Source of the DNA: a virus
Lineage: Duplodnaviria > Heunggongvirae > Uroviricota > Caudoviricetes
DNA length: 64,000 bases
IMG/VR virus record: IMGVR_UViG_3300035696_002535
Reading direction: 5' to 3' (one strand)
Below the pieces are notes generated by a model. The model did no database searches. It worked only from the letters and a program-made list of their open reading frames with translations, and was not told the DNA's origin. A program made the position numbers and the translations under genes. Of this stretch, positions 9,212 through 40,641 are shown in pieces (the stretch's first letter is position 1; the number at the start of each line of letters is the position of its first letter).

Positions 9212-9226
9212 CAATATACTATCTTG
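9212..9226 (-). promoter_or_regulatory. conserved promoter-like motif caatatactatcttg (identical 15-mer at 23811-23825)
   Basis: Sits about 20 nt upstream of the minus-strand start at 9192. On the transcribed strand it reads CAAGATAGTATATTG and contains a -10-like TATATT. Confidence 0.4.
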
Positions 9227-9497
9227 TAATGGGCTGTCCACAATCTTTTTTACCCACAGGTTGATAAACAAACCACAAGATAACAATGACAGGCACAAAA
9301 ACCGTTTCGGACAGAATACATGCCCATACGATATTTCCAACACAAACTTTGTATTGAACGCAAGGATCTTTCTCGTCTGCGTTAATGAGACCGTACGGAG
9401 TAACCGTCTTTCCATTCACGTAAAGGTCATGGGCGCATCCAGACATCGTACAGGCCAGTAACGAGACGCACAGCAGCAAAGACACGAGCTTTTTCAT
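9219..9497 (-). CDS. small lipoprotein (start moved to 'MKKLVSLLLCVSLLACTMSGC')
   Basis: Signal peptide plus lipobox 'LLAC'. Confidence 0.45.
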   Translation of the reverse strand: MKKLVSLLLCVSLLACTMSGCAHDLYVNGKTVTPYGLINADEKDPCVQYKVCVGNIVWACILSETVFVPVIVILWFVYQPVGKKDCGQPITR

Positions 9498-9530
9498 AAG
9501 ACCCTCTTTTGAGTTAAAGTTATCTGTATT

Positions 9531-9547
9531 CAATATACTTTTTTAAC
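9531..9547 (-). promoter_or_regulatory. conserved promoter-like motif caatatacttttttaac
   Basis: About 35 nt upstream of the lipoprotein ATG; belongs to the same motif family as 15620, 28775 and 40627. Confidence 0.35.
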
Positions 9548-9594
9548 AATGCAGTTAATACATATTTTTATAATTATCTATTAATATCTGTTTC

Positions 9595-10578
9595 ATGTGT
9601 GTTACCCTGTTTAAGTACAAACAAAGGAGATATATGAACACTAAAAACATTCCAAAAAAAGATGTACTTGATCTTTATTCCTCTAGTAAGTCTGTTCTCT
9701 ACATAGCCAGCAAATATGGTGTGTCTACCAAACCAATATACAAGATACTAAAGGATAACAATGTTAAATTGAAAACCTATTCTGAGTCTGCTAGAAGATA
9801 TCCTTTAAATGAAAACTATTTTAACAAAATAGACACCCCTGAAAAAGCGTATTTTGTTGGACTCCTTTATGCAGATGGGTACAACAACAGAGCAAGAAAT
9901 TCTGTAATACTAAGTTTAGAAGAGCATGACAAATATTTGTTGGAGAGACTATCTTCTTTCATTTTTATAGGAAAAAGAGAGCTACTGTATATAAAACCAC
10001 CAAAAAGAAAGAAAAAAATCAACGGTAAATATATTAACACTAATCCGGCATATCGTTTGACCATAACTAGTAAAAATGTAAGTTCTGTTTTAAGGCAACA
10101 CGGAATGGATGAGCATAAAACAAAAAATCTTAAATTTCCTAAATGGCTCTCTCCAAAGCTACTTCGACATTTTATAAGGGGGTATTTTGATGGGGACGGA
10201 TACACAGGTATCAACAAAAAAAGAAAAGATGCAGAAGTTAGTATAATAGGTACCGAAAGTTTTATAAAAAACACAATCAAAGTAATAAAAACTAAACTTA
10301 ATATTACCGTTTTAAAGAAAAAGCACATATCCAAGGGTATTCTTTGTTTAAGAATTTGTGGTAACATACAGGTTTTAAAATTTCTTAATTGGATCTATAA
10401 AGATAGTTCTTTATTTCTAACAAGAAAACATGATAAATATAAAGAATTGCTGCAAATCAGATATAGCATAGAAAATAAGCCAAAAAAACTTTGTTCCTTA
10501 TGTAAAAATGAGCACTACGGTAAAGGACTGTGCTTTAGCCACTGGAGAAAAGCCCGTTATCGTGAACTTAAACTTTAA
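9595..10578 (+). CDS. LAGLIDADG homing endonuclease, free-standing, two-motif (single-chain) type
   Basis: Two LAGLIDADG motifs, 'FVGLLYADGY' and 'GYFDGDGY'. It is the only plus-strand gene inside a 40 kb minus-strand block, with a divergent low-complexity flank. Confidence 0.75.
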   Translation: MCVTLFKYKQRRYMNTKNIPKKDVLDLYSSSKSVLYIASKYGVSTKPIYKILKDNNVKLKTYSESARRYPLNENYFNKIDTPEKAYFVGLLYADGYNNRARNSVILSLEEHDKYLLERLSSFIFIGKRELLYIKPPKRKKKINGKYINTNPAYRLTITSKNVSSVLRQHGMDEHKTKNLKFPKWLSPKLLRHFIRGYFDGDGYTGINKKRKDAEVSIIGTESFIKNTIKVIKTKLNITVLKKKHISKGILCLRICGNIQVLKFLNWIYKDSSLFLTRKHDKYKELLQIRYSIENKPKKLCSLCKNEHYGKGLCFSHWRKARYRELKL

Positions 10579-11162
10579 ATAACACCGTCTTCAGCAAACC
10601 TTAAGAACACAAGATAAGCTTTGGCTCCTATTTTATTGTCAGGATTTTCTATAACAATTTTAACTTGTTTTCTATTTAAAAGAAAAATCTGGATGTCTTC
10701 AGATGATTCATTTTTTTCAAGGTTGATAGTACCTTCTGCTTCTACGAAAAACATGTATGTAGATTCATTTGTTAACCCAGCACTACTGAAAACAGGAGAT
10801 CTAGTTTTTCTTAATATTTTTTTTATCTTTAAACCTGTTTCTTCGAAAAGTTCTCTTTTGGCAGTCTCCTCAGGGGATTCCCCATAATCTATTAGTCCTG
10901 CGGCACACCCGTATTCATAGTCTTGAAGGGGGATACGAAACTCTTTGATAACAACAAGTCGTGGATTTGGATGGGGATTCGTGTTGTCTTCTGTATCAGG
11001 ATCATCCCCAGGGACTATCGCCACGATTACAACAGCGTTTTGATTCCCCGGGCGTTCAGCCGATATCCACTCTTTACGTTGCCCAGTCTTGTCTTCATAA
11101 ACGGTGCGCACCAGATTAAGGAAACGGCTTTCAGCTATGTTGTGTTTTTCTCGGATTTTCAT
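10575..11162 (-). CDS. NUDIX hydrolase
   Basis: A perfect Nudix box, 'GLIDYGESPEETAKRELFEETGL' (GX5EX7REUXEEXGU). Confidence 0.8.
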   Translation of the reverse strand: MKIREKHNIAESRFLNLVRTVYEDKTGQRKEWISAERPGNQNAVVIVAIVPGDDPDTEDNTNPHPNPRLVVIKEFRIPLQDYEYGCAAGLIDYGESPEETAKRELFEETGLKIKKILRKTRSPVFSSAGLTNESTYMFFVEAEGTINLEKNESSEDIQIFLLNRKQVKIVIENPDNKIGAKAYLVFLRFAEDGVI

Positions 11163-11441
11163 CTACATCCCCTTTGCGTAATCATATTTGTCATCTGAAC
11201 TGTCGAAAGCCTCACGGTGACCGTCCGCGTGTCCCTCATTATAACCGATGTTTAAGGCATATCGGATCAAAGCCCCGATGTCAGTCTTTTTGATGATCAG
11301 CAAGACCCCATTTTCTTCAGCTCGAGCTTTAATCCAGCTACCATATATTTTAATCCCATGCTTCTTCTGAGCATCCAATAAGATTCTATTTACTCGTCCT
11401 CTTGGCATAGCAATCTCTCCGCTAGTTAAAAAAACTACCAA
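11163..11441 (-). CDS. hypothetical protein
   Basis: 92 aa ORF packed between the NUDIX and macro genes. Confidence 0.4.
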   Translation of the reverse strand: MVVFLTSGEIAMPRGRVNRILLDAQKKHGIKIYGSWIKARAEENGVLLIIKKTDIGALIRYALNIGYNEGHADGHREAFDSSDDKYDYAKGM

Positions 11442-12051: not shown

Positions 12052-12052
12052 A

Positions 12053-12825: not shown

Positions 12826-12844
12826 AGCCCCCTTTGATAAGTGC

Positions 12845-13528: not shown

Positions 13529-13558
13529 AAATAATTCCCCTTTCTAGGGAGTTAAGGT

Positions 13559-14778: not shown

Positions 14779-14824
14779 GAGACACTCTCCTTTGAAAATG
14801 TTATATGGATTTGGTTAAGGACAC

Positions 14825-15574: not shown

Positions 15575-15619
15575 GGTACCTCCTCTGGTTTTAAAGATTG
15601 CCTGATTTCGTTCTAACAG

Positions 15620-15635
15620 TAATATACTTTTTTGG
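15620..15635 (-). promoter_or_regulatory. conserved promoter-like motif taatatacttttttgg (identical 16-mer at 28775-28790)
   Basis: About 50 nt upstream of the ATG at 15574. On the transcribed strand it reads CCAAAAAAGTATATTA. Confidence 0.4.
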
Positions 15636-15674
15636 AAAATCGAATCCAAAAGAAAAATAAAATTATTTTTAATT

Positions 15675-15708
15675 AAAAAGGCACCCTATTTCTAGAGTGC
15701 CTTTTTCC
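15675..15708 (-). terminator. rho-independent terminator hairpin (A-run / GGCAC...GTGCC stem / T-run), bidirectional
   Basis: aaaaaGGCACcctatttctagaGTGCCtttttcc lies 36 nt 3' of the RRM gene stop. Confidence 0.55.
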
Positions 15709-15743
15709 AACGAATCATCAACAATTATTCCTACACTGAATAA

Positions 15744-16121
15744 TCATCTACGTCCGTAGTTGCTTCCGCCGCCACCTGCGCCACCATATGGCTTGTTGCC
15801 ACGAGGTTGCTGAGGATGTGCCTCATTGACCTTAAGAGCACGCGGAGGCGAGCCCATTTCTTTTCCATCGAGCTTGAGAGCCTCATCGAGGTTCTCCAAC
15901 TCGATTTCAACGAAACAGAAGCCTTTTGATCTGCCACTGTCACGGTCTGTGATGATATTCACGGTCTTGACCGTTCCAACGCCTGCAAAAAAGTTCCTGA
16001 GATCATCCTCTGTTGCAGCCCAGGGAATGTTCCCCACATACAGTTTCTTTAACACAAAACCCTCCACAGAAAAGTGAAAAATAAACGGCTTTAACACCGC
16101 CCCGTCCAGTTTGGACGACAC
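15744..16121 (-). CDS. RRM-type RNA-binding protein with Gly-rich tail (cyanobacterial Rbp / CIRP-like)
   Basis: RNP2 'LYVGNI', RNP1 'KGFCFVEI', C-terminal 'GGAGGGGSNYGRR'. Confidence 0.8.
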   Translation of the reverse strand: MSSKLDGAVLKPFIFHFSVEGFVLKKLYVGNIPWAATEDDLRNFFAGVGTVKTVNIITDRDSGRSKGFCFVEIELENLDEALKLDGKEMGSPPRALKVNEAHPQQPRGNKPYGGAGGGGSNYGRR

Positions 16122-16136
16122 TGATATAACAGATTA

Positions 16137-16148
16137 AATATACTATCC
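16137..16148 (-). promoter_or_regulatory. promoter-like motif aatatactatcc
   Basis: Sits 16 nt upstream of the RRM gene start; shares the core AATATACTAT. Confidence 0.35.
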
Positions 16149-16177
16149 TTTTCTTTAAATAACAAGGATAATTAAGC

Positions 16178-17781: not shown

Positions 17782-17783
17782 AA

Positions 17784-17798
17784 CAATATACTATTTGG
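17784..17798 (-). promoter_or_regulatory. promoter-like motif caatatactatttgg
   Basis: Immediately upstream of the start at 17781. Confidence 0.35.
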
Positions 17799-17895
17799 TA
17801 TAAAGAAGTTTAACAATTATTTCCATTTATAACCCAAGACAGGAGCGAGCTCAGGAGGGCAAGGACCTATGATATCTGTGAGTTTGTCGTATAGG

Positions 17896-18798: not shown

Positions 18799-18972
18799 AA
18801 AATTATCACCATAATTAAATATCCGAGGCGGGGTAGTTATTCCCTACAAGCTACAAACGCACGGAGGATTGTAGTTTGATTCTCGGATATAATGTTTCTT
18901 AAAAATTATCCGTGCAAAACGCGAGAAGAGAGTAACTAACTCTCCTATAATGGTAGGAATATGAAGAGAGTA

Positions 18973-23592: not shown

Positions 23593-23793
23593 CTAGCTCT
23601 CCATGTTAAGCTCATCTTCATTGTTATAAGGGAAAGGGACAAAGGTGCAGGTAGCAGTACAACTGTAACCACCCAAAGATGCGTGTTCCCGTTCACGATA
23701 GTACAACCAACCTCCAGGGACTCGAGTTACTGTGTACTTTCCAGCAACACAGGATTCGTGTAACTTCAACAGATAGACCATGTTCGTAGTCAT
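23593..23793 (-). CDS. small Cys-containing hypothetical
   Basis: 66 aa ORF preceded by the promoter-like motif. Confidence 0.3.
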   Translation of the reverse strand: MTTNMVYLLKLHESCVAGKYTVTRVPGGWLYYREREHASLGGYSCTATCTFVPFPYNNEDELNMES

Positions 23794-23810: not shown

Positions 23811-23825
23811 CAATATACTATCTTG
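23811..23825 (-). promoter_or_regulatory. promoter-like motif caatatactatcttg (exact copy of 9212-9226)
   Basis: 18 nt upstream of the start at 23793. Confidence 0.4.
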
Positions 23826-23846
23826 AACAACACTTCCAAACAACTT

Positions 23847-24407
23847 TTATAAGAAATTTAAAACTCTTCTGTCGCTCTTCCTGGTTATTATTGAAAGACC
23901 AGCGTTAATGACCGGTAAAGTCACTATATTTAGATCTTTTCTCTCGCTGTAGATATAGTCGATTATCCTGTATGAATCCCCGCATTGCTTTTTATCCAGA
24001 AGGTCAGCACTCCAAGGATCTGTATCGTGCATGAAGATTAAACCATATTTAGCAAGGATATTTAAAGAATTTTCGAGATCTTTTACGGCAGACTCGAAAC
24101 AGTGATCCGCATCTATGAAGATGACCTGAACTTCATCCTTAAAAAATTTGAAAAAACTATCTGTAGAGCACATAAAGAATTCCCCGAACTTTTCTCCTTC
24201 TCTGTCATCTTTAATGTCCACTCCTATCCATCGACGGACAAGAGGTCTTATCGCCCTTGCAGTGTCCCCACGCGCTACACCCAACTCCAAAAAAGTCTCA
24301 CATTCCAATATCCGAACAATGGACATCATTAAATCTGTGTGTCCATATCCTACCTTTGGTTCTACATGTCCGTACATGCTCACATCTCCTTGAAAAAACT
24401 GGCACAA
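23847..24407 (-). CDS. class I SAM-dependent methyltransferase (O-MTase family-3-like)
   Basis: 'LELGVARGDTARAI' (motif I-like) and 'IFIDADHCFESAVKDLE' (compare FIDADK). Confidence 0.55.
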   Translation of the reverse strand: MCQFFQGDVSMYGHVEPKVGYGHTDLMMSIVRILECETFLELGVARGDTARAIRPLVRRWIGVDIKDDREGEKFGEFFMCSTDSFFKFFKDEVQVIFIDADHCFESAVKDLENSLNILAKYGLIFMHDTDPWSADLLDKKQCGDSYRIIDYIYSERKDLNIVTLPVINAGLSIITRKSDRRVLNFL

Positions 24408-25124: not shown

Positions 25125-26876
25125 TCAGTCCTTCAAAGTGACTTCTGTATTTAATTTATCTACAATATTAACAGAAAAAGAGTCGCACTCCCTGATGGTC
25201 TTATAGACATAGGGAACGGATATGTCATACTTCTCCTTTATCTTTTTTACTATGTAAATTCTTTTTAGCATCTCCTTTTTTTCATCTTTAAAGAGTCTTT
25301 TGATGGCATTCAAAAGATTTCGTTGAACTCTTTTTCTTACTGGTATAAGAGATTTGTAATTATCCTTGAGCTTATATAAGTACCGTTTACGGTTAGAGTT
25401 TCTGTGTCTTGTAACAATAGGAGATTTACTCAGGACGGCATGACAAGAACTCCTTTTTAGCCCTGTTACTGCGACAAGTTTATTTATCAACTGGTGTGGC
25501 TCCCAAACTTTGTTTTTCATTATTTTTATCAGCGCCTGGTGTACGTTGATTTTGGATCTATTGAATTTATAGGTATTAATTCTATTTTTGTATCGACCTT
25601 TCCAAGATTTCAATATCACGCGATGATCTTTCAAGCGAAAAAACTCTTTACCAATAAAAACTGATATAAGACTGATTACATTTTTTAATTCAACGTCTGG
25701 GTAGACACTCCTTAGGTTGTCATATATTTCTTTCAAACTACACGGCCTCCCAGAGTTTATTAAAAATCTTTTTATTACAACATACATTGGATCGGTATCT
25801 ATATCAGTTTCCCTTGCAGCCCACCTACCTGTTTTTCCTATAGGTTTAAATCGGATGTCCAAAGAAAGAGGCAAAGTCTTTATGTCAGATCCACGAAGTT
25901 TATTGACAGCTTCCAATAACTCTGTATATTCCATGTCTGTCTTGATTCGAGTAAGGATCCTATACGCTACATCTGATCCTGACGAGGCTCTGTCCGCCAG
26001 CTGATAGCGGTCTGAATCTATTCTTTCAATTTCAGGTATAAGTCCCAAGATATCCTGAAGGAGAACCTTAGGAACTTTAAATCTCCTAATTAAGTCATTG
26101 ATATTTACAAATAAGTAGTTTTTTCTGAAGATTCTTTTGACACTATAATAAAGCTTTCTTATTTTAATATGGGATCCTATAGGTCTGGTAAAATAAATAG
26201 GAGTAAGAAAAAAAGGATGGTATTCAATCCCGAAGATTTCAAAAAATAAGGAAAGGTTTTTCTTCTTATCGGCAGTCAATGGTATGTGCTCTTCTTCAAA
26301 AACTTTTTTAATAAAGTCATCGTTGAAAACCATGTGCCTGAAAAACACGTCTCGAAGTGCATGTATCTGTTGTAGAACTATCACATCGCACCTGAGATTG
26401 TTTATGGAATGTCCGCCGAACAATTTTTTTAGCTTATTTAAATGGATGTTTCTTACCTGCCGGACTCGTTCCCGTGACACTGTGTGCTCTTGTCCTATTT
26501 CTCTCAAATTTTTGTCATCGTTCCTTATTCCATAGTATACGAGGATACAATCTCGATTAAGTCCGTCTTCTATGGTGTCACAGTAGTCTTTTATGATCTC
26601 TGCAAAAATAGTAAAAGCATCCCAACTAGGATCAAGCTCTTTCGGTACAACTGTAGATATTTGACCGCACACCTGGAGACTATTGATATCTACAGGATCT
26701 TTTGGAGGATAGTCTATTTTGGCGACCCGTGGGTAGTTTGTTTTGAATACTTTTGAGTTTTTTTTACTATGTAGGAGAGGTCGATAAGTATAAGGAAAAT
26801 ATTCTTCCCGCAAAAAACGGTAAGTTTTTGATCTGGCTCGTTTTCTTATTGTTGAAGATAGCATAGATAAACTCAA
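25125..26876 (-). CDS. large protein with a sigma-70 region-4-like HTH domain (possible phage transcription factor)
   Basis: 'ILVYYGIRNDDKNLREIGQEHTVSRERVRQVRNIHLNKLKKL' closely matches sigma70_r4 (..LeEIG..lgvSrERVRQIe.rAlrKLr). Unusually, it lies in the N-terminal third of a 583 aa protein. Confidence 0.5.
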   Translation of the reverse strand: MSLSMLSSTIRKRARSKTYRFLREEYFPYTYRPLLHSKKNSKVFKTNYPRVAKIDYPPKDPVDINSLQVCGQISTVVPKELDPSWDAFTIFAEIIKDYCDTIEDGLNRDCILVYYGIRNDDKNLREIGQEHTVSRERVRQVRNIHLNKLKKLFGGHSINNLRCDVIVLQQIHALRDVFFRHMVFNDDFIKKVFEEEHIPLTADKKKNLSLFFEIFGIEYHPFFLTPIYFTRPIGSHIKIRKLYYSVKRIFRKNYLFVNINDLIRRFKVPKVLLQDILGLIPEIERIDSDRYQLADRASSGSDVAYRILTRIKTDMEYTELLEAVNKLRGSDIKTLPLSLDIRFKPIGKTGRWAARETDIDTDPMYVVIKRFLINSGRPCSLKEIYDNLRSVYPDVELKNVISLISVFIGKEFFRLKDHRVILKSWKGRYKNRINTYKFNRSKINVHQALIKIMKNKVWEPHQLINKLVAVTGLKRSSCHAVLSKSPIVTRHRNSNRKRYLYKLKDNYKSLIPVRKRVQRNLLNAIKRLFKDEKKEMLKRIYIVKKIKEKYDISVPYVYKTIRECDSFSVNIVDKLNTEVTLKD

Positions 26877-27870: not shown

Positions 27871-28752
27871 CTAGAACAACAGACTCGCCTTCCGATTCCA
27901 TTTTGTGTAAAGATGACAGTCTGGACGAAGAATCAAATATCGAACCGTGTCCCTTGAGGTGGTTGACATACAGTCATCGTCTAACAAGACGGACATCCCT
28001 TTGACACCATATCTGGTAGCTCCAAAAGAAACCGTTTCTAGAGGATATCCATTATTGATAATCCAATTTCTAAGTTCTCCTGCATGTTTGTACTCATGCG
28101 AATTTATCCACTGATTTTGTGGAAGATTCTCGTTTCCAGAAGTATACAGTATCCTGAAGGTTATCTGCTGTGGAAAAAGACTTCCGGCTCTATTGAAAAT
28201 TTGTTCAAAACTCCAGCGATCATACTCACTCCACATATTCAGAGAAAGTCTAAGATTTAATCCGTGATCCCTTATACTTTTGCACAGGCAGTCGATGCCA
28301 AATCTGAGACCTTCGGGCGTATGATTTACTTTATGGTTAGAGTCATCATCAAACATGTTAGAAAGGCTAAGACTAATCCCTGTCACTCCAAGGATATTCC
28401 TGAGGAATTTTAACTTTTCGTTGTCGAGGGTGACACCAGAAGTTTGAACTTCTATCCAACGAAAAGGCCTGATTGTTCTAGTGTTCCAGTGGGCCAGCTT
28501 CTCTAGGAAAGTCATGTTTAAAAGAGGCTCTCCTGTGCCGGTGATTATGAGGGACTCAAAGTTTCTCTCAAGGCAGAAATCAATCCTATTTAAATAGTCC
28601 CGCTCGTAGAGATAGTCGCCGCTTTCTATGAGGTTCGGATAAGTAGTGTCATCCATAGATGACACGCAAAACTCGCAAGCATTTGGACAGCCTTTACCGT
28701 TTTGCCCGTGACCCTTAGTAGGGACAGCAATAGAAAGTGATCTTAGATCCAT
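27871..28752 (-). CDS. radical SAM enzyme
   Basis: 'GCPNACEFCVS' gives CxxxCxxC. Confidence 0.55.
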   Translation of the reverse strand: MDLRSLSIAVPTKGHGQNGKGCPNACEFCVSSMDDTTYPNLIESGDYLYERDYLNRIDFCLERNFESLIITGTGEPLLNMTFLEKLAHWNTRTIRPFRWIEVQTSGVTLDNEKLKFLRNILGVTGISLSLSNMFDDDSNHKVNHTPEGLRFGIDCLCKSIRDHGLNLRLSLNMWSEYDRWSFEQIFNRAGSLFPQQITFRILYTSGNENLPQNQWINSHEYKHAGELRNWIINNGYPLETVSFGATRYGVKGMSVLLDDDCMSTTSRDTVRYLILRPDCHLYTKWNRKASLLF

Positions 28753-28774: not shown

Positions 28775-28790
28775 TAATATACTTTTTTGG
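28775..28790 (-). promoter_or_regulatory. promoter-like motif taatatacttttttgg (exact copy of 15620-15635)
   Basis: 23 nt upstream of the radical-SAM gene start. Confidence 0.4.
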
Positions 28791-28800
28791 AATACGGAGT

Positions 28801-29391
28801 TCAACATGTTTTTGCATAATTTATCGGGAATCTGAACAACCTGACTTCTCTTTTTTTGACTTTCTGCCCATACCAGACCTCCAATTTACCGGTTTTATTG
28901 TCACCCTTCCAGTCTATAAGGCAAAGGTTCTGCCCAGTCTTATCGTCCTTGGTGGTATACTCGGCTATGATATGGCTCTTGTTTAGAGAAAAAGAGTGTC
29001 CTTTTTTATGCCAGTGTATGGCGCGGGTAATCCGTTCGTGGCCATCCTGTACAATGGCTTCTATATGATCAGCTAGATCATTACCACACTCATTTAATAA
29101 TGTAGAAAACTCTCTCTTCTCATCAAGGCTACCCGCTGAGTCTAGATAATATATCCTAGGTTGGAATACAAAAGATTGTGGTTTAAACACAGCCATATAA
29201 ATAAGTCCTTCATATTCGTCGGATACATACGCTAGTACCTTTTTATAATCCCTGATCTCATAGACATCAAAAGCTATCTTTGGCTCGTGGAATTGTCTTT
29301 GCGTAGTTGGGTCCGATAAGACAAAACCATATCCCGTTTCTGTCCCCATGTTGTTTCTCCTAAAAACGAGGTCAGTGCAGACAGCTTCCAC
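28801..29391 (-). CDS. uncharacterised protein, paralog family A (paralog of 13559..14173)
   Basis: See 13559..14173; the shared C-terminal 'C-L-[MI]-DWKGD..K.G..E.WYG..VK..EV.LF' block. Confidence 0.5.
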   Translation of the reverse strand: MEAVCTDLVFRRNNMGTETGYGFVLSDPTTQRQFHEPKIAFDVYEIRDYKKVLAYVSDEYEGLIYMAVFKPQSFVFQPRIYYLDSAGSLDEKREFSTLLNECGNDLADHIEAIVQDGHERITRAIHWHKKGHSFSLNKSHIIAEYTTKDDKTGQNLCLIDWKGDNKTGKLEVWYGQKVKKREVRLFRFPINYAKTC

Positions 29392-32387: not shown

Positions 32388-32401
32388 AACAAACTCCTAC
32401 T

Positions 32402-33103: not shown

Positions 33104-33428
33104 TTCGTTCCCGAAGCCAATCTAAAACCATATTGTGCACAGATTCCTTTTCACTGAACCCGCCCTTGGGAACAACTATAGAACCATAGCCAAACTCGTT
33201 GTTCTCTACTCGCTGCAGGATTTTAACAAGGCTGTAGTTACCATCTTCAATCAAGGTCTGCCAGAGATTCTCCGTAGATATTATTTTTTTCTCTTGCTCT
33301 TGTTCTACAGCAGTCGCTTTGAAAAATAGGCCACTCTCTCGAAGATAATTCATGAAGCTGGTGAAATGCAATTTAAAAGCATTAGGACGTATGTCAGAGC
33401 TTGTACGGATTATGATCTGTTTTTTCAT
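33018..33428 (-). CDS. hypothetical protein, translationally coupled to nadE
   Basis: Its ATG overlaps the nadE stop (ATGA-type overlap). Confidence 0.4.
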   Translation of the reverse strand: MKKQIIIRTSSDIRPNAFKLHFTSFMNYLRESGLFFKATAVEQEQEKKIISTENLWQTLIEDGNYSLVKILQRVENNEFGYGSIVVPKGGFSEKESVHNMVLDWLRERNVNVIDVENEISCLEKSLHREMVYNGRD

Positions 33429-35314
33429 TTAGCCTCCGAATTAAGAGCCTTATTCTTCAGCTCATGATATTTTTTAGTGAAATAGGCTTCTCCTATGTAA
33501 TCACGAAAATCCCACCCGAAGACTCGACGGGTTAAACCCAGAATAGGAGGAGCCTGGACTCTTTTAACGACACTCATCCCTTTGAACAGTTTATACCATC
33601 GTTCCAGATCATCCGTGAATGTTTTTACAGTAGGAAATAGTTTGTATACATCTTCAGATGTCCCAAGTTTTTCATTGATGGTTTTATCCAAATACCACTG
33701 AAGGTTCTCTTCTGGAGTTACTCTGTACCACCACTGTTGCCAGGATTCAAAAAGTTTATCATGGTACCAGTAAATGAGGGGATCACCTTTACCTTCATCT
33801 ACGTTTTGTTCCGAAGAAAGTTCGGCAGAGGGGGTAACTGTGAAAGCTTCTTCCGGTATATAGTTTTTGATTTCATTTAACTCTCGCCCTATCTCATATA
33901 CTTGGTGTTTCCACAAATCACCAAGGGGAGCAAAAAAGCCACTGTTGTCGCCCCCTAGGGTACAGTATCCCACGCAACTTTCAGTTTTATTCGAATTACA
34001 AGTAAAAACTCCACCCCAGGCCGAGGCCAATGCAGCAAGGATCCTAGAGGATCTGTCACGAGCTTGGACGTTCTCCAAGTCAAACGAGGTTAGAGCCAGT
34101 GCCTTATAAGAACCTGTAGAAGAGTTCAGTCTAACTTTAACACCTTTTTCCTGCTGATAGACAGTAAGTCCATCAATATACTGTTTAGTTAGGTCAACCG
34201 AACTCTCTATAGGTATAATAGTATAATAGCATCCAATGTTTTTAGCTAGTTCCTCAGCAATGTTTCTAGTTGTTTTTGAGTTCCACCTAGTTGGCATATT
34301 CACCAACAGGAGATTCTCAGGTCCTACAACCTGGGCAGCAAGCGAGGCAACCACCGAAGAGTCTATTCCACCGGACACCCCAACAACCACCTTATTCGTT
34401 TTGCAAAGCTCTAGGAATTTTCTGAAACCATATTTCATAGCTGCTACGGTTTCTTTACTGCCTGTTGGAATAGAATAGCTTTTAGAGACAGGAAAAAGGT
34501 TGTTATTTTTGTATTCTACATAATAAAGGCCTTCTTCAAACATAGGAGCTTGAAAAACGGGCTCGCCATAGGAGTTATAGGCTACAGAAGAGCCATCAAA
34601 GGTATACACGCTTTTTCCTACGTTTTGTAAACCTGTAGCATTTAAATATATAAGAGGAGTTTTTTTGGCTTTAGCATGGCCCTGTCCGAATACTCTATCT
34701 CTGGCTTTGTTTTTTTCATAAGTATAGGGAGAGCAAGAACAATTAATTATAAGTTGGGCTCCTCTTTTAACAAACTCTTCAACTGGGCAAACAGGGTAGT
34801 CTTTACCTTTAGTCTCACACCAAAGATCCTCGCACACTGTAAAAGCAATCTCAGTCCCTTGAATAGTGTGAGGAGTAAAATAATCAGCACTATACAATTC
34901 CATGGAAGACGTAAAATGTCTTGGTTCATCAAATTCTCTATAGTTGGGAAGAAGGGCTTTGATGTAATAAGGATGCATTACTGTATGGTGTAGGTTGGGT
35001 CCTACCCAATTAATAACATTAAAAAGTTTAGGTCTTCCGTCTTTGTGTATCCCTTTACCTTTTTTTATATTACCATAAACAACTATGATTTCCTTGGAGG
35101 CCTCTTCAATATCCCTGTTATAACCTTCGCAATCTTCAATAAAAGAGAGTTCCTCCCACTGATCCCCAATAAGATATCCAGGTATGAATAGCTCTGGGGC
35201 AATGATCATATCGGCTTTAGCTTCTATAGCTTTGGGTATATATTCCAATAGCTTGGCACAATTTAAGTCAGGTCTTCCGGGGACACTCTCAAGTTGAGCA
35301 AGAGCAATTTTCAT
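33425..35314 (-). CDS. nadE: glutamine-dependent NAD+ synthetase (N-terminal nitrilase/CN-hydrolase domain + NAD synthetase domain)
   Basis: 'MKIALAQL' CN-hydrolase start and a PP-loop 'VVGVSGGIDSSVVASLA'. At 629 aa it is typical of two-domain NadE. Confidence 0.85.
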   Translation of the reverse strand: MKIALAQLESVPGRPDLNCAKLLEYIPKAIEAKADMIIAPELFIPGYLIGDQWEELSFIEDCEGYNRDIEEASKEIIVVYGNIKKGKGIHKDGRPKLFNVINWVGPNLHHTVMHPYYIKALLPNYREFDEPRHFTSSMELYSADYFTPHTIQGTEIAFTVCEDLWCETKGKDYPVCPVEEFVKRGAQLIINCSCSPYTYEKNKARDRVFGQGHAKAKKTPLIYLNATGLQNVGKSVYTFDGSSVAYNSYGEPVFQAPMFEEGLYYVEYKNNNLFPVSKSYSIPTGSKETVAAMKYGFRKFLELCKTNKVVVGVSGGIDSSVVASLAAQVVGPENLLLVNMPTRWNSKTTRNIAEELAKNIGCYYTIIPIESSVDLTKQYIDGLTVYQQEKGVKVRLNSSTGSYKALALTSFDLENVQARDRSSRILAALASAWGGVFTCNSNKTESCVGYCTLGGDNSGFFAPLGDLWKHQVYEIGRELNEIKNYIPEEAFTVTPSAELSSEQNVDEGKGDPLIYWYHDKLFESWQQWWYRVTPEENLQWYLDKTINEKLGTSEDVYKLFPTVKTFTDDLERWYKLFKGMSVVKRVQAPPILGLTRRVFGWDFRDYIGEAYFTKKYHELKNKALNSEAK

Positions 35315-35330
35315 AAAACGCCTTTACTTT

Positions 35331-36620
35331 TTAAGTACATCTGTGTGCTTTTAATATCTCGTATACCCTTCCAGGAGAACATTTTAAAAGTTTTGATATC
35401 TCAAATCTGTCTAGACGTTGTTTATGAAGACTTAGAATCCTATTTACGTCTATTTTGTTCTTACTCACCAAAGTGATACTCTTTTCTAAAATTTCTTTCT
35501 CATTGTCTTTTATGAAACCCACATCCGTATGCTCTATTTGATGGCAATTTCGGCACAGTACTGTGCACTTGTTTAACTCCTCTTTCACTTCCTCAGGGAT
35601 ATCATCTACGGTTTTCCAAACTTCGTCTATAATGTTATTACTTATCTTGAATGTTTTAGTTGTGTCATCTGTATGGTGAAACTCAAGAGAATCCAGACAT
35701 TTATTATATCCACAATAAGCACATCCACGGATATTTTTATACTCTAGACAAAGCTTTTTATTTAATATACTGCTATCTCTCTTCCTGTCTAAATGAAGCT
35801 CTCGGTGGCAATTTTGGCATAGTAAATCACATTTTTTGGCTTCTTCAAGTAGTTGCTCATATCTGACTTTACTCAATCTGGTGATATTGTCTTTTTTATC
35901 TTTCGGATTTCTGTGATGAAAGCATAGTACCCAAAATCTATCCTCAGAGCAAACCTGACATTTCCCTCCAGTATCCCTCACAAGTTTTAATTTTTTGGCC
36001 CAAATAAGAATTCTTCTGTTCTTGTTGTCCCTCCCCGTATCCCTACTTACTTTATTTCTTTTGTACACAGGAGTTGTTCTAACATAAGGTACTTTTTGTT
36101 TGCGACTTTTTTCTATAGCACAAAGTCTGCAACCTTTCCTCTTAGAAACATGGTTATTTGGTGTTTGAAAAAAGCTACCATGTATTTTACAAATAATTTC
36201 TACTTTGGTTAAAGCCGTTTTGTAGTGTACTCTACTATAGTCATATTTATTCCCGTGGACAGACACGGCATTTTCAAAGAACTTATCAGCAAAAGGTTTT
36301 ATATCAATTTTTTTACGGCAAAAAGGGCACCCCTGCCCTTTGTAGTGATTTCCTGGAGTAACTTCAAATTCCCCGTGTGTTTTACATAAAATTTTTAATT
36401 TCTTATGCCTTCCAGTGTAAACGGATTCGCTATAATCATATTTGTTTCCGTGTATCTCTCGTGCTTTAGCAGTAAAAAAATCAATGTCTTTCTTCTTCAT
36501 TTTTTGTTTGAACGGTTGGGTTAAGGATTGTTTTAACATCATATCCTCGTTTTTCGCACCATTCCCGTATAGCCTGCTCTGTAATTGCGAAGATCTTGAG
36601 TCCCTCTTTTTCAGACACAT
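35331..36620 (-). CDS. HNH homing endonuclease-like protein with two HNH motifs and duplicated N-terminal 'GNKYDYS...C..HG.F...P..H..G.GC..C' modules (true start likely near 36500)
   Basis: 'CQVCSEDRFWVLCFHHRNP...CQNCHRELH' and 'CAYCGY...LEFHHTDD...CRNCHQIEH'. Confidence 0.6.
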   Translation of the reverse strand: MCLKKRDSRSSQLQSRLYGNGAKNEDMMLKQSLTQPFKQKMKKKDIDFFTAKAREIHGNKYDYSESVYTGRHKKLKILCKTHGEFEVTPGNHYKGQGCPFCRKKIDIKPFADKFFENAVSVHGNKYDYSRVHYKTALTKVEIICKIHGSFFQTPNNHVSKRKGCRLCAIEKSRKQKVPYVRTTPVYKRNKVSRDTGRDNKNRRILIWAKKLKLVRDTGGKCQVCSEDRFWVLCFHHRNPKDKKDNITRLSKVRYEQLLEEAKKCDLLCQNCHRELHLDRKRDSSILNKKLCLEYKNIRGCAYCGYNKCLDSLEFHHTDDTTKTFKISNNIIDEVWKTVDDIPEEVKEELNKCTVLCRNCHQIEHTDVGFIKDNEKEILEKSITLVSKNKIDVNRILSLHKQRLDRFEISKLLKCSPGRVYEILKAHRCT

Positions 36621-36837
36621 ATTGACAGAATTTTAAGGTCTCCTGACTGCAGGCTAGTCTACAGTTTTTAGCAACCGTCTTCATAACCGTCCCTTTCTAT
36701 ACTTAATATACGCTTATGTAGTTCAAATATTTACATAAAAATGAATTATTTTGCATTATTCCCTTGGATAACTTCGATCTGAGCCATCGCAATTTTCATT
36801 GAGATATCCTTAATAAGTAAGAGGGATAGCCTTTCTA

Positions 36838-36852
36838 CAATATACTTTTTAG
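36838..36852 (-). promoter_or_regulatory. promoter-like motif caatatactttttag
   Basis: In the 36685-36874 gap upstream of the minus-strand HNH region. Confidence 0.3.
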
Positions 36853-36874
36853 CTAATGTCTATCCAACATATTT

Positions 36875-37261
36875 TTATTCCTCGGACGAAGCCTCAAGGT
36901 CTGCTTCATCTGGCTTAAAAGTCTTTGGGATACTCATAACTAAATCACCAAAATCATAGGTAACTTTAATCCCCTCTATTCTTTTGAGGTAGGTGGCTAT
37001 CTCTGTGTCCGTGGCTCCCTGTTCTTTTGCTTTTTTCACGACTTCTTTTGGCGAAGAATAGTACCCCTCTGGATGAGCGTACTGTCTTCCTGATTCCGGT
37101 TTTCTTTTTGAGAAAAGAACTATGTTGTAGTTATCCCGGGTGACACGCAGAGTGTCGTTTAGGTGAATGAAAAAGCCTTGAAGCTCCTTCTTATTCTCTG
37201 CGCGTTTCTGTAATCTCTTCTCAACTGTTTCGGCCTTAGCTAAATGAGAGCCTCTAGGCAT
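36875..37261 (-). CDS. hypothetical protein
   Basis: 128 aa ORF. Confidence 0.4.
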   Translation of the reverse strand: MPRGSHLAKAETVEKRLQKRAENKKELQGFFIHLNDTLRVTRDNYNIVLFSKRKPESGRQYAHPEGYYSSPKEVVKKAKEQGATDTEIATYLKRIEGIKVTYDFGDLVMSIPKTFKPDEADLEASSEE

Positions 37262-37889: not shown

Positions 37890-37891
37890 AT

Positions 37892-38551: not shown

Positions 38552-39180
38552 TTTGGTTTCTCCACTTTCTTCCAGATAATAGTAACAGGTTGTTTAGGTT
38601 CTATCATCCATTCCTCACCATAAAATCTTTTTCTAGTCTCGTTCCCGTCTCGAAGGACAGACTGATCAGAAGCAGTAGGTATCTTTCTTAGCGCGATGGT
38701 AAGCATTGCAATAGCGTGTAATTTTAGCTCATAATCGTGGATGGCCTCGGATAGGTTATCACATTTATTCCAGCAAATTGGTTCATATCTGAATACTAAA
38801 AACAGTTCATTATCTGAACTACTTTCATTTGCATGTATGCTCCATAGAGTATTCTTTATAGCATCCTCAAGTAGTTTATAAACTTCGGGATTTGTATTAT
38901 AAAAGGCAACTTGAGTCCATTTTGAGTGGGACTTGGGCTCCTCTTCACCCACATAACTATAGCCACAGCAGCTAAAAGAGGTCCGTAGACCTATACGATT
39001 AAGCTCCATCACAAGAGGCCGTATGGGTCTATCTATAGAATCTAGGACCGATCTTTTGTCCGCGTCTTTATTTAATTTTTTGTTTCGATCCTCAATATCT
39101 TTAAACTCAGGAAGCTTGTCTGCAGGCCTTGTGTCAATTTTTTCTTTTTCAAGTTTTTCATAGGAAATCTCGTTGTTCAT
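38548..39180 (-). CDS. hypothetical protein
   Basis: 210 aa ORF. Confidence 0.4.
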   Translation of the reverse strand: MNNEISYEKLEKEKIDTRPADKLPEFKDIEDRNKKLNKDADKRSVLDSIDRPIRPLVMELNRIGLRTSFSCCGYSYVGEEEPKSHSKWTQVAFYNTNPEVYKLLEDAIKNTLWSIHANESSSDNELFLVFRYEPICWNKCDNLSEAIHDYELKLHAIAMLTIALRKIPTASDQSVLRDGNETRKRFYGEEWMIEPKQPVTIIWKKVEKPK

Positions 39181-39191
39181 TTATTGCCTTT

Positions 39192-40619
39192 CTAGTATAT
39201 CCTCGATGACCAGCTGTCTACACCGAAGCCCTCCCGTGATACCCAACGTTTAATTATAGACATTTCTTTTTCCGTAGGCCCCCTGTTGTTGAGCCCTCTT
39301 ATCTGATTAAGACGTTTTCCGGAGATCTCTATAGTAAGATGTTTGAATAATCCTGTGTGATCTTGTCTGGTCAAAGACCATATAGAGCTTCTTCCTGAAG
39401 CACAAGACCCAGCATAACTGGCTACGCAATGGTGCATAGCTCTTCCTTCGGAGGACAGCTCCCTACTACTGAGGAGCTCTGTAATCCTCCAAAATTTAAC
39501 GTTCCTGCTTTCATTAGAGCCTTCTTGGAATTCGAAATCTTTAGAAGAAGAATGCTCCCAGTGTTGGTCTCCTCCCTTTTTTTCTTTGCCGAGCTGCCTG
39601 TGCCATCTTTCAACCTGAGCCATAAGGGATTCAACAGTACGGCCAGTCATAGAGAAATTAGGTTGAGGAGGACCACGGTGCTCGATCTGTCCACGGCCAA
39701 CAAAAATTGTTTGATTCTCATATTTTTGATTCCAGATATAATCTACTATAGGTCCCACTTGTGCAAGATCCAACATGGGGTTGGCTATAAAGAACCTGAT
39801 TATCGATAGGCAAAAATCGTCAAGGGTTGTACCACTGTAAAGTTTGGATCCAATAACAGCTTCCGTGAGCCGTGGAGTTCCACCCATAGCCATAACCTGC
39901 CCGAATCTCCAAGCCTTTTTGAAATCATAATTACTTGGTGCCTGCATAAAAAAATGAGCCATTTTCTTTGTACAGGGATAGCGTTCGAGGAATCCTGGGG
40001 CTGTCATGATATTTTTACCTTGAGCTACATGAATGTACCAATCATGCTCTACCCCATTGTCTCTTGTCCACACCTGATCGAAAAAATCTGGTACTTCGTA
40101 TTTTGCCAAGACATGATGCACAAAAGAAAGAAATTGTCTCTCAGCATTATAAGTATTTGGCTTCCAGGTCTCCCATGGACGTATCCAAGAATCCTTCTTC
40201 ACTATTAACCTTGCCAAAGGAAATATAAATATACCTCTCTCGAGTATCTTTGTCTTTTTATCGAAAAAGGCCAGGATGTCCAAGAAAGCTTCTTTATCGA
40301 TGTACAAAAATTCAGGATGTTCTTTTTCATGATATATCTTGGCCACGCAATTGAATTTGGAATGTCTGAATTCTGAGGTTCCGGATCGGATAAGTTCTAT
40401 GGCTTTTTTTGTCGTCAGTTTTGAGTTGTCTCTTAGTATTTCACGGACAGCAACATCCCTATTTATAAATTCTATCTCTTTGTTAAGTTGCGCTTTGCTC
40501 TTATTTATAGCCGTACTGAATCCGTGTTTTTCACACCACGACAGGTAGGAGGAAATGTCGGAGGCACCGACCAAGTCGAGGTGTCGCTTGTATTCAGCTA
40601 CATTTATCTTTGTTCCCAT
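39192..40619 (-). CDS. hypothetical 475 aa protein, possibly PcfJ-like
   Basis: The C-terminal 'EGRAMHHCVASYAGSC...IWSL...ERLTIEI' is reminiscent of PcfJ-like proteins; weak. Confidence 0.3.
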   Translation of the reverse strand: MGTKINVAEYKRHLDLVGASDISSYLSWCEKHGFSTAINKSKAQLNKEIEFINRDVAVREILRDNSKLTTKKAIELIRSGTSEFRHSKFNCVAKIYHEKEHPEFLYIDKEAFLDILAFFDKKTKILERGIFIFPLARLIVKKDSWIRPWETWKPNTYNAERQFLSFVHHVLAKYEVPDFFDQVWTRDNGVEHDWYIHVAQGKNIMTAPGFLERYPCTKKMAHFFMQAPSNYDFKKAWRFGQVMAMGGTPRLTEAVIGSKLYSGTTLDDFCLSIIRFFIANPMLDLAQVGPIVDYIWNQKYENQTIFVGRGQIEHRGPPQPNFSMTGRTVESLMAQVERWHRQLGKEKKGGDQHWEHSSSKDFEFQEGSNESRNVKFWRITELLSSRELSSEGRAMHHCVASYAGSCASGRSSIWSLTRQDHTGLFKHLTIEISGKRLNQIRGLNNRGPTEKEMSIIKRWVSREGFGVDSWSSRIY

Positions 40620-40626
40620 ATATAGT

Positions 40627-40641
40627 AATATACTTTTTCGA
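40627..40641 (-). promoter_or_regulatory. promoter-like motif taatatactttttcg in a divergent promoter region (40620-40784)
   Basis: 8 nt upstream of the start at 40619. A forward 'GGTATATTATT' lies 12 nt before the plus-strand gene at 40785. Confidence 0.4.

What the first reader, a model, noticed from the sequence alone, without database searches (positions are those of the whole stretch)
9212..40641. Recurrent 15-16-nt AT-rich promoter-like element, including exact repeats, upstream of at least nine minus-strand genes
The motif (T/C)AATATACT(A/T)T(C/T)TT(G) occurs 8-50 nt upstream of minus-strand start codons at 9212, 9531, 15620, 16137, 17784, 23811, 28775, 36838 and 40627. The 15-mer caatatactatcttg is identical at 9212 and 23811. 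The 16-mer taatatacttttttgg is identical at 15620 and 28775. On the transcribed strand it reads (CC)AAAAAAGTATATT(A/G), an A-tract followed by a -10-like TATATT. A forward-strand version, GGTATATTATT, sits 12 nt before the first plus-strand glycan gene (40785). This looks like a phage-specific middle or late promoter class. It could be the target of the sigma-r4-like protein 25125..26876.
Basis: seen in the sequence. Interest (0 to 1): 0.5.

Follow-up and report, generated by a model that had tools for sequence, protein, structure and literature searches.

The report
Stereotyped sigma-70-type promoters of a large phage
The repeated AT-rich element is the -10 half of about a dozen near-identical bacterial-type promoters that drive the accessory genes of an uncultivated large phage, which is a tidy but ordinary feature of big lytic phages.

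Summary
All nine sites exist, and the two exact repeats are in fact 18-mers. The core A(A/T)AGTATATT occurs nine times, each time in intergenic DNA and in the sense orientation. Intergenic DNA is only 5.3% of the window.

Aligning 12 sites shows:
- an A-tract at -44..-40;
- a -35-like TGTTGnA, with TTG at -35..-33 and a 17-bp spacer;
- C at -20 and an A-run at -19..-14;
- an invariant G at -13 and an invariant TATATT.

Start codons with Shine-Dalgarno sequences lie 18-46 nt downstream. Two divergent genes start 5-7 nt after the -10, which predicts leaderless mRNAs. Syntenic relatives with about 50% protein identity keep the element before the same genes. A 467-kb phage contig pairs GTATATT with canonical TTGACA at 17 bp.

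Best reading: these are strong bacterial-RNAP (group-1 sigma) promoters, probably read by the host enzyme early in infection, like T4 or T5 early promoters. A phage-encoded sigma cannot be excluded. A "late" class is unsupported. The "sigma-r4-like" protein belongs to a Sigma70_r4 + HARE-HTH family without sigma region 2, so it is not a sigma factor. This is a new member of a known kind, of modest interest.

The parts
40627..40665 (-). Promoter (-45..-7) before the PcfJ-like gene 39192..40619. The ATG lies 7 nt after TATATT, so a leaderless mRNA is predicted.
   Evidence: The same 7-nt arrangement is found in L016 and L015.
36839..36877 (-). Promoter before a 17-codon remnant ORF. It is orthologous in position to the NAD synthase promoter of relatives.
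   Evidence: L016:11434 and L149:11082 lie before NAD synthase.
36705..36743 (-). Weaker family member (cGTATATT) before the 67-aa ORF 36481..36684 and the HNH endonuclease 35331..36620.
   Evidence: PWM score 16.7.
28776..28814 (-). Promoter (TTGAAC-17-TATATT) before the radical SAM gene 27871..28752.
   Evidence: Orthologous promoter at L016:18545.
23812..23850 (-). Promoter before the 66-aa gene 23593..23793 and the RNA ligase operon.
17785..17823 (-). Promoter before the T5orf172/MUG113-domain gene. The Shine-Dalgarno-supported start is at 17754.
16137..16175 (-). Promoter (TTGTTA-17-TATATT) followed by a structured leader of about 80 nt with a terminator-like hairpin.
15621..15659 (-). 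Promoter before the gene starting at 15574. It is preceded by a terminator hairpin in the intergenic gap 15650-15743.
9532..9570 (-). Promoter before a 92-aa secreted or lipoprotein-like gene (start 9497). It is divergent from the LAGLIDADG gene 9595..10578.
9213..9251 (-). Promoter before the 88-aa gene 8926..9192. It is embedded in the 3' end of the upstream ORF, and the G at -13 is the last base of that ORF's TAG stop.
17..55 (-). Perfect TTGACA-17-TATATT promoter firing leftwards out of the window.
   Evidence: A near-identical promoter at L011:2390-2432 precedes a tRNA-like array.
40741..40779 (+). Plus-strand family member (gGTATATT) before the zf-like gene 40785..41045 and the 22-kb rightward sugar-pathway cluster. 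The ATG lies 5 nt after TATATT.

Best explanation
The recurring element is the -10-proximal half of at least 12 stereotyped bacterial-type promoters. Eleven point leftwards and one points rightwards. They lie in the accessory-gene arm of an uncultivated large phage whose source contig is 110 kb.

Consensus on the transcribed strand: AAAAA (-44..-40), n a TGTTGnA (TTG at -35..-33), a 17-bp spacer with T at -24 and C at -20, an A-run at -19..-14, G at -13, then TATATT (-12..-7).

Inferred mechanism:
1. A bacterial RNA polymerase holoenzyme with a housekeeping-type (group-1) sigma binds these sites. Most probably this is the host enzyme, right after infection.
2. The alpha C-terminal domain sits on the A-tract.
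3. Sigma region 4 sits on the -35-like element.
4. Sigma regions 3.0 and 2.4 sit on G(-13) plus TATATT.
5. Initiation occurs about 7 nt downstream.

This yields 5' leaders of roughly 10-40 nt that carry a Shine-Dalgarno sequence. For the two back-to-back genes at 40619 and 40785 it yields leaderless mRNAs.

The extra conserved positions (C-20, the A-run, G-13, always TATATT) are lineage-specific additional information that makes these promoters uniform and strong. T4 early promoters are the precedent.

Shown here: sequence architecture, placement, orientation, statistics, and conservation in relatives. Inferred: which polymerase or sigma acts, the timing, and the start sites.
For: Placement and orientation:
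- 9 of 9 core motifs and 12 of 26 GTATATT are sense-intergenic, and none is antisense-intergenic.
- PWM hits are 13 minus and 0 plus, against 2.4 in shuffles.

Architecture from 12 aligned sites:
- A at -44 and -43 in 10/12 (P 5e-4 each).
- T-35 in 11/12 (2e-5), T-34 in 10/12, G-33 in 6/12, A-31 in 8/12.
- C-20 in 9/12 (1e-5), A-16 in 11/12.
- G-13 in 12/12 and TATATT in 12/12.

Comparison with the 79 other TATATT hexamers:
- The best -35 match at 16-18 bp averages 3.75/6 against 2.53/6 (P 4e-4).
- The A count at -45..-40 averages 4.1 against 2.0 (P 2e-4).

Downstream features:
- Seven sites are followed at 18-46 nt by a start codon with a Shine-Dalgarno, and the two divergent genes start 5-7 nt after the -10.
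- The PcfJ ATG lies exactly 7 nt after the -10 in the window, L016 and L015, as expected if the A of the ATG is +1.

Conservation:
- Syntenic relatives L016/L017 and L149/L150 have PcfJ 48-50% identical, SPFH 77% and radical SAM 65%.
- They keep AGTATATT before PcfJ (or the gene just upstream of it), NAD synthase and radical SAM, in otherwise unalignable spacers.
- L024, from a 467-kb phage contig with a 37% PcfJ homologue, has 7 GTATATT sites. Five have TTGACA, GTGACA or TTTACA at 17-18 bp, one directly before a tRNA. L011 also has 4-5 sense-strand sites of the same kind.

Literature:
- T4 early promoters are "uber" UP/-35/TGn/-10 promoters with extra consensus positions (PMC2988021).
- Sigma-70 senses the spacer just upstream of the -10 (PMC3130263).
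- Position -13 is read by sigma (PMC3333887).
- Jumbo-phage multisubunit RNAPs lack alpha and sigma (PMC7598289), so UP-like and -35-like features point to a bacterial-type enzyme.

Gene content is pre-replicative and accessory, with no structural genes.
Against: - No transcript data exist, and the host is unknown.
- The closest relatives (L016, L149) keep the extended -10 but have poor -35 matches of 2-4/6. The -10-proximal block may therefore be the only essential part, as in promoters read by phage-specific factors.
- The exclusivity of G(-13)TATATT is tighter than is usual for host-read promoters. It holds for 12/12 sites here with no TATAAT at all. It recurs in phage contigs of 35-49% GC (L016, L011, L007, L024). 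This could reflect a shared phage-encoded sigma.
- There is no TG at -15/-14, unlike T4 early promoters.
- The window holds no late genes, so class specificity cannot be checked.
Confidence: 0.6

Rival explanations
1. The promoters are read by host core RNA polymerase carrying a phage-encoded sigma-70 homologue, or by host holoenzyme remodelled by a phage factor. That would make them a middle-type or phage-autonomous class. The stereotyped block C(-20)-A-run-G(-13)-TATATT would be the specific determinant, and the -35 would be dispensable.
For: - The extended -10 block is what is conserved in relatives, while the -35 quality varies.
- G(-13)TATATT is invariant here and shared by several large-phage contigs of different GC.
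- Some huge phages encode their own sigma-70 (PMC7162821).
- Jumbo phages without their own RNAP usually encode sigma factors (PMC7824862; PMC7598289).
Against: - No sigma region-2 protein was found in the proteins scanned: about 34 of roughly 60 minus-strand ORFs of the window, plus the precomputed Pfam lists for about 100 kb of related loci.
- The only sigma-like hit is a region-4 HTH fused to HARE-HTH domains.
- The UP-like A-tract and TTG at -35 are significantly enriched, and L024 uses a textbook TTGACA.
- A phage RpoD-like sigma would give the same picture, so this rival is weakened mainly by parsimony.
Confidence: 0.25
2. They are early promoters for a virion-packaged multisubunit RNA polymerase of a phiKZ/AR9-type jumbo phage. 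That enzyme recognises a conserved AT-rich element of about 10 nt centred near -10.
For: - Such phages have a bioinformatically obvious AT-rich motif of about 10 nt at -10 before early operons (PMC7598289).
- The phiKZ early motif is an extended -10 plus a homopolymer-rich stretch upstream of -19 (PMC8244752).
- The relatives' contigs reach hundreds of kb.
Against: - Those polymerases have no alpha subunit and no sigma. Here an A-tract sits at the alpha-CTD position and TTG at -35 with 17-bp spacing, and TTGACA occurs in L024, L011 and the window edge.
- No split beta or beta' genes appear in any locus examined.
- No leaderless transcript was found in phiKZ, whereas two are predicted here.
Confidence: 0.08
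3. The repeat is primarily not a promoter. It would instead be an operator for a phage HTH regulator (for example the Sigma70_r4/HARE-HTH protein), or a recombination module that shuffles gene cassettes, as with the PeSL elements of T4-type phages.
For: - Exact 18-mers recur.
- Lineage-specific insertions abut promoter copies. Four genes lie between PcfJ and 36845, and the HNH cassette lies between 36845 and NAD synthase.
- PeSLs are promoter-containing repeats that mediate indels (PMC4122927).
Against: - The element has every feature of a promoter and is strictly co-oriented with genes.
- Only 1 of 12 copies (15621) is preceded by a stem-loop terminator, so the composite PeSL structure is not met.
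- An operator or recombination role would be additional to promoter function, not an alternative to it.
Confidence: 0.05

Closest known systems
T4 (and T5) early promoters: strong host sigma-70 promoters with UP, -35, TGn and -10 elements plus extra phage-specific consensus positions (PMC2988021)
   Same: - Many near-identical copies lie before pre-replicative accessory genes of a large lytic phage.
- There is an A-rich UP-like tract near -42, a -35 element at 17 bp and a near-consensus -10.
- Conservation extends into the spacer beyond what host promoters show.
   Different: - There is no TG at -15/-14. Instead there is an A-run at -19..-14 with an invariant G at -13 and C at -20.
- The -10 is always TATATT.
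- The -35 is TTGnAa rather than GTTTAC.
- No T4 core genes are seen, and the host and timing are unknown.
Canonical bacterial sigma-70/sigma-A promoter (TTGACA-17-TATAAT with a proximal UP subsite)
   Same: - The spacing, A(-11) and T(-7), TTG at -35..-33 and the A-tract at -44..-40 all match.
- Two family members are perfect TTGACA-17-TATATT (window 17-45 and L011:2426).
   Different: It is far more uniform than a host promoter population. G(-13) and T(-8) are invariant, and the spacer is conserved.
[quoted passage not shown]
   Same: There is a highly conserved AT-rich block centred at -10, with a homopolymer-rich stretch just upstream, before early operons of a very large phage.
   Different: UP-like and -35-like elements are present. 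No phage RNAP genes were seen. Leaderless genes are predicted.
PeSL (promoter-early stem-loop) cassettes of T4-type phages
   Same: Repeated early-type promoter sequences flank variable accessory genes, and some lineage-specific insertions abut them.
   Different: The stem-loop/terminator half is present at only one of 12 copies. The identical stretches are only 18 nt long.

Membership tests
Bacterial sigma-70-family (-35/-10) promoter | -10 hexamer of TATAAT type with A at -11 and T at -7 | tested here: met
   TATATT in 12/12 aligned sites.
Bacterial sigma-70-family (-35/-10) promoter | -35 element related to TTGACA, 16-18 bp upstream of the -10 | tested here: met
   T-35 in 11/12, T-34 in 10/12, G-33 in 6/12, A-31 in 8/12. 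The best match averages 3.75/6 against 2.53/6 at other TATATT hexamers (P 4e-4). It is weak in relatives L016 and L149 and canonical in L024.
Bacterial sigma-70-family (-35/-10) promoter | Lies upstream of, and co-oriented with, a transcription unit | tested here: met
   All 12 are sense-intergenic. Start codons lie 5-46 nt downstream at 10 of the 11 scorable sites, and 36845 is followed only by short ORFs before a gene at 154 nt.
Bacterial sigma-70-family (-35/-10) promoter | Transcription start 5-9 nt downstream of the -10, dependent on holoenzyme | not testable with these tools
   No RNA data. The only indirect support is the conserved 7-nt distance from the -10 to the ATG at the PcfJ gene in three lineages.
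UP-element-containing promoter (alpha-CTD contact) | A/T-rich proximal subsite around -46..-38 | tested here: met
   A in 9-10/12 at -44..-42. The A count at -45..-40 is 4.1 against 2.0 (P 2e-4). Binding itself was not tested.
T4-type early 'uber' promoter | Extended -10 TGn at -15..-13 | tested here: not met
   Positions -15 and -14 are A/T and A, and G is at -13.
T4 middle (MotA/AsiA) promoter | MotA box (a/t)(a/t)(a/t)TGCTTtA centred at -30 replacing the -35 | tested here: not met
   The conserved block is TGTTGnA at -37..-31, at the -35 position, not at -30. No MotA or AsiA hit was found in the ORFs scanned.
T4 late (gp55) promoter | TATAAATA at -10 with no upstream element, before late or structural genes | tested here: not met
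   The motif is GTATATT(A/G), upstream elements are present, and there are no structural genes.
Jumbo-phage virion-RNAP early promoter | Highly conserved AT-rich motif of about 10 nt centred near -10 before early operons | tested here: met
   The block at -20..-6 is conserved.
Jumbo-phage virion-RNAP early promoter | Phage encodes split beta/beta'-like RNAP subunits, and the promoter lacks sigma- and alpha-dependent elements | tested here: inconclusive
   No RNAP-like Pfam hits were found among the window proteins scanned or in the related loci. Only part of the genome is visible. The -35-like and UP-like elements present argue against membership.
PeSL composite terminator/promoter cassette | Stem-loop terminator physically coupled to each early promoter copy | tested here: not met
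   Only the copy at 15621 has an upstream terminator hairpin.
Sigma factor (for protein 25125..26876) | Sigma region 2 (core binding and -10 recognition) in addition to region 4 | tested here: not met
   Only Sigma70_r4 is detected (residues 108-151 of the 583-aa ORF). PDB hits cover sigma region 4 only. In the family, 27/34 members have Sigma70_r4, 14/34 have HARE-HTH and none has r2.
Bacteroidota sigma-A promoter | TAnnTTTG at -7 and TTTG at -33, with genes lacking Shine-Dalgarno sequences | tested here: not met
   The base after TATATT is G, A or T (5/5/2) and the next base is not G. Strong GGAG-type Shine-Dalgarno sequences are present. The consensus used is recalled from the literature, not checked here.

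The most novel reading that the evidence does not exclude
G(-13)-TATATT, with its A-rich upstream flank, could be the recognition code of a phage-encoded sigma-70-like factor or of a phage-remodelled polymerase. That factor would be shared by several lineages of very large uncultivated phages (window lineage, L016, L149, L011, L007, L024; 35-49% GC). These phages would then carry their own promoter dialect across different hosts. Conserved leaderless expression of the PcfJ-like gene would be part of that programme.
Probability: 0.2. Interest if true: 0.55.

Novelty: new member of a known kind. Interest (0 to 1): 0.3.

Why it matters
- It gives a precise operon map for 40 kb of otherwise opaque accessory genes of an uncultivated large phage: about 11 transcription units, with two predicted leaderless genes.
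- It provides a searchable promoter signature that links several huge-phage contigs.
- It supplies ready-made strong promoter sequences whose unusual invariant positions (C-20, the A-run, G-13) can be tested for what they contribute to polymerase recognition.
- It does not reveal a new kind of regulatory system.

Tried and rejected
- **Cultured relatives.** Megablast of 20 kb, and tblastn of the 583-aa protein against INPHARED phages, found nothing. The RNA ligase, PcfJ and SPFH proteins gave only distant hits.
- **IMG/VR with the 583-aa protein.** No relative was found.
- **LR756511** (595-kb uncultured phage, 41% PcfJ match). No comparable motif usage.
- **Host inference.**
  - PcfJ homologues in GTDB genomes are chromosomal genes of Poribacteria, Planctomycetota and Gammaproteobacteria at about 40% identity, and those loci lack the motif.
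  - Homologues of the sugar-pathway aminotransferase gave no usable taxonomy.
  - The host remains unknown.
- **Generic sigma-70 consensus scan.** No overall enrichment (45 against 43, 44 against 47, 85 against 78), so it cannot find these sites by itself, although it lists several of them.
- **Long PWM.** A 54-column PWM from 9 sites overfits and finds only its own sites.
- **Rfam on the window.** No family was found.
- **Free MAFFT alignment of the NAD synthase upstream regions.** It failed to align even the motif, because the spacers are otherwise unrelated.
- **Literature search for GTATATT.** It returned only primer noise.
- **Models rejected on defining features.** PeSL, MotA box, T4 late and Bacteroidota promoter models (see the membership tests).
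- **Structure prediction of the sigma-r4 protein.** It was not run, because the family-level domain scan already answered the question.

Full report
**What the window is.**
- Minus-strand genes run from 673 to 40619.
- A plus-strand cluster of lower GC (0.35) runs from 40785 to 62381.
- The minus-strand arm encodes the following:
  - a PARP-like protein, a glutamine-dependent NAD synthase, an RNA ligase, NUDIX and a non-specific endonuclease;
  - radical SAM, SPFH/flotillin, PspA-like and methyltransferase proteins;
  - four homing-endonuclease-type genes (GIY-YIG, HNH, T5orf172, and a LAGLIDADG-like ORF on the opposite strand, assigned by eye from its sequence).
- No structural gene is present.
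- The plus-strand cluster holds glycosyltransferases and a CDP-dideoxyhexose-type pathway.
- Both arms sit on one 110,352-bp JGI contig.
- No cultured phage is close. The nearest relatives are metagenomic contigs, some of several hundred kb.
- The window is therefore an accessory, early-type region of an uncultivated large phage.

**Checking the observation.**
- All nine sites are real.
- The degenerate 14-mer occurs 5 times, against 0.03 expected.
- The two exact repeats are 18-mers.
- I used a curated gene map in which intergenic DNA is 3,372 nt, or 5.3% of the window. On that map:
  - A[AT]AGTATATT is sense-intergenic in 9 of 9 cases (P about 6e-15);
  - GTATATT is sense-intergenic in 12 of 26 cases and never antisense-intergenic;
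  - every sense-intergenic TATATT is preceded by G;
  - no TATAAT lies in sense-intergenic DNA.
- A PWM of -20..-6 gives 13 minus-strand and 0 plus-strand hits at 12 bits or above, against 2.4 in shuffles. There is a clear score gap between the ten intergenic sites (14.7-21.0) and everything else.
It is clearly not met.
- Two members were missed: 36705 and the window-edge site at 17-23.

**Anatomy.** I aligned 12 sites on the G of GTATATT.
- A at -44..-42 in 9-10 of 12 sites.
- T-37, G-36, T-35 (11/12), T-34 (10/12), G-33 (6/12) and A-31 (8/12). This is a TTGnAa hexamer exactly 17 bp from the -10.
- T-24 (8/12) and C-20 (9/12).
- An A-run at -19..-14, with A-16 in 11/12.
- G-13 in 12/12 and TATATT in 12/12.
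- Both the -35 match and the A-tract are significantly better than at the 79 other TATATT hexamers of the window (P 4e-4 and 2e-4).
- This is the layout of a bacterial promoter with a proximal UP subsite, a -35 and a -10.

**Downstream features.**
- Seven sites are followed by a start codon with a Shine-Dalgarno 18-46 nt after the -10.
- The site at 36845 is followed only by short ORFs before the next gene, 154 nt away. The start after 16143 is ambiguous, at 15 nt or at 81 nt with a Shine-Dalgarno.
- The two back-to-back genes at 40619 and 40785 start 7 and 5 nt after it, without a Shine-Dalgarno. This is what a leaderless mRNA requires.

**Relatives.**
- PcfJ homologues led to the syntenic loci L016/L017 and L149/L150. 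Protein identities to the window are PcfJ 48-50%, NAD synthase 53%, SPFH 77% and radical SAM 65%.
- In L016, (A/G)GTATATT(A/G) sits before PcfJ (again 7 nt from the ATG), before the NAD synthase operon and before radical SAM.
- In L149 it sits before NAD synthase and before the gene preceding PcfJ.
- The surrounding spacers are otherwise unalignable.
- L015 (PcfJ 51% identical) uses GTATAAT, and the PcfJ ATG is again 7 nt downstream.
- A pattern scan of IMG/VR found unrelated large-phage contigs with the same architecture (L011 173 kb, L007 386 kb).
- L024 (467 kb, 26 tRNAs in 16 kb) has seven GTATATT sites. Five have TTGACA, GTGACA or TTTACA at 17-18 bp.
- The -35 is weak in L016 and L149.
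- The element is therefore conserved by position and function. The -10-proximal block is the constant part.

**Which polymerase.**
- The A-tract at the alpha-CTD position, and TTG or TTGACA at a 17-bp spacing, argue for a bacterial-type enzyme with a group-1 sigma.
- Jumbo-phage multisubunit RNAPs have neither alpha nor sigma (PMC7598289). Their early promoters are, however, also conserved AT-rich blocks at -10, so I keep that model as a minor rival.
- T4 early promoters are the closest precedent. They are many strong UP/-35/TGn/-10 promoters with extra consensus positions, placed before pre-replicative genes (PMC2988021).
- The spacer next to the -10 and position -13 are known sigma contact points. 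From memory, not checked here: sigma-70 is reported to prefer G at -13 where sigma-S prefers C (Becker and Hengge-Aronis 2001).
- I therefore favour host housekeeping holoenzyme acting early.
- The main rival is a phage-encoded sigma-70 homologue or a remodelled holoenzyme. Such factors exist in huge and jumbo phages. That rival would explain the rigid G-13/TATATT and its recurrence across contigs of different GC.
- No sigma region-2 protein was found among the proteins examined, but most of the genome is unseen.

**The proposed sigma-r4-like reader.**
- The ORF 25125..26876 is probably 515 aa long (JGI call, P0121).
- It matches only sigma region 4.
- An exhaustive search found 229 homologues. 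Among 34 aligned members, 27 carry Sigma70_r4, 14 carry HARE-HTH and 9 carry a Schlafen/AlbA_2 domain. None carries sigma region 2.
- It is a DNA-binding or polymerase-associated HTH protein, not a sigma factor. Region 4 would not read a -10/A-tract element.
- Whether it touches these promoters remains open.

**Other models tested and rejected.** PeSL composite cassettes fail because only one copy has a terminator hairpin upstream. The MotA box, T4 late and Bacteroidota promoter models were also rejected.

**Verdict.**
- The interpretation as a promoter class is right.
- The class is best described as stereotyped sigma-70-type, probably early promoters, not late ones.
- The suggested protein partner is not supported.
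- This is a new member of a well-known kind of phage feature.

Noticed in passing
window 17-55 (minus strand); L011:2390-3680: The left-edge promoter (cttgacattttcttaaaatcagcGTATATTta) is almost identical to a promoter in an otherwise unrelated 173-kb IMG/VR contig. There it precedes a non-coding array of about 1.2 kb made of tRNA-like units. Each unit follows a repeat (gatctttgaaatagtcgg...ggcttacatt). ARAGORN calls none of them, and Rfam tRNA matches two. A similar RNA array may lie just left of the window.
   Followed up: partly
window 40619-40785; L016:9975-10003; L015:9987-10003: The PcfJ-like gene starts 7 nt after the -10 hexamer, without a Shine-Dalgarno, in three lineages. The divergent zf-like gene (40785) starts 5 nt after its -10. 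Both are predicted to be conserved leaderless mRNAs from a 165-nt divergent control region.
   Followed up: partly
window 35331-36874: A 17-codon ORF (MKIAMAQIEV..., 36799-36749) follows promoter 36845. It resembles the N-terminus of NAD synthase (MKIALAQLES..., 35314); the first 60 nt are 32/60 identical. Between them lies a cassette with its own promoter (36705), a 67-aa ORF and an HNH endonuclease. Relatives have the promoter directly before NAD synthase. This looks like a homing-endonuclease cassette insertion that duplicated the gene's 5' end.
   Followed up: partly
window 16040-16136 (minus strand): Promoter 16137 is followed by a structured leader of about 80 nt. It contains a G+C hairpin plus a T-run (GGGCGGTGTTAAAGCCGTTTATTTTT) before the first Shine-Dalgarno-supported start at 16055. 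Fold z-score is -2.2. It may be an attenuator or a small RNA. There is no Rfam match.
   Followed up: partly
window 25125-26876 (minus strand): The "sigma-r4-like" protein belongs to a broad family with at least 229 homologues. The family combines a sigma region-4 HTH with HARE-HTH domains, and some members add Schlafen/AlbA_2 or an RNAP alpha-CTD domain. The function is unknown. The likely true length is 515 aa.
   Followed up: yes
window 9595-10578 (+), 16942-17751, 17896-18798, 35331-36620 (-): There are four homing-endonuclease-type genes in 27 kb (LAGLIDADG-like, T5orf172/MUG113, GIY-YIG+NUMOD3, HNH). Three lie next to promoter copies. The LAGLIDADG assignment is by eye from the sequence and was not scanned.
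   Followed up: no
window 10575-11162, 18973-20397, 33425-35314; L016:6149-6937; L149:5745-6545: This lineage carries an NAD/ADP-ribose toolkit: PARP-like (WGR+PARP_reg+PARP), NAD synthase and NUDIX in the window, and ADP-ribosylglycohydrolase in relatives. It may counter NAD-depleting defences.
   Followed up: no
window 40785-62381 (plus strand): A 22-kb phage-borne sugar cluster (radical SAM/SPASM, GT17-like and DXD glycosyltransferases, transketolase-like, CDP-6-deoxy-hexulose 3-dehydrase-type aminotransferase, epimerase/dehydratase). GC is 0.35, against about 0.40 elsewhere. It has only one family promoter, at its start.
   Followed up: partly
window 18799-18972: A 174-nt non-coding gap lies between the PARP gene and the GIY-YIG endonuclease gene. 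It has internal repeats (tactctctt) and no family promoter. The function is unknown.
   Followed up: no
window 7452-7465 and 7743-7756 (minus strand): An exact 14-mer, CTTTACTTAAGGAG, spans the ribosome-binding sites of two neighbouring genes. Two matches were found against 0.8 expected, so it is not significant alone. Two adjacent 82-aa ORFs suggest a local duplication.
   Followed up: partly
L024:1700-16250: The 467-kb IMG/VR phage contig carries 26 tRNA genes within about 15 kb, interspersed with TTGACA-17-GTATATT promoters and the PcfJ homologue.
   Followed up: partly
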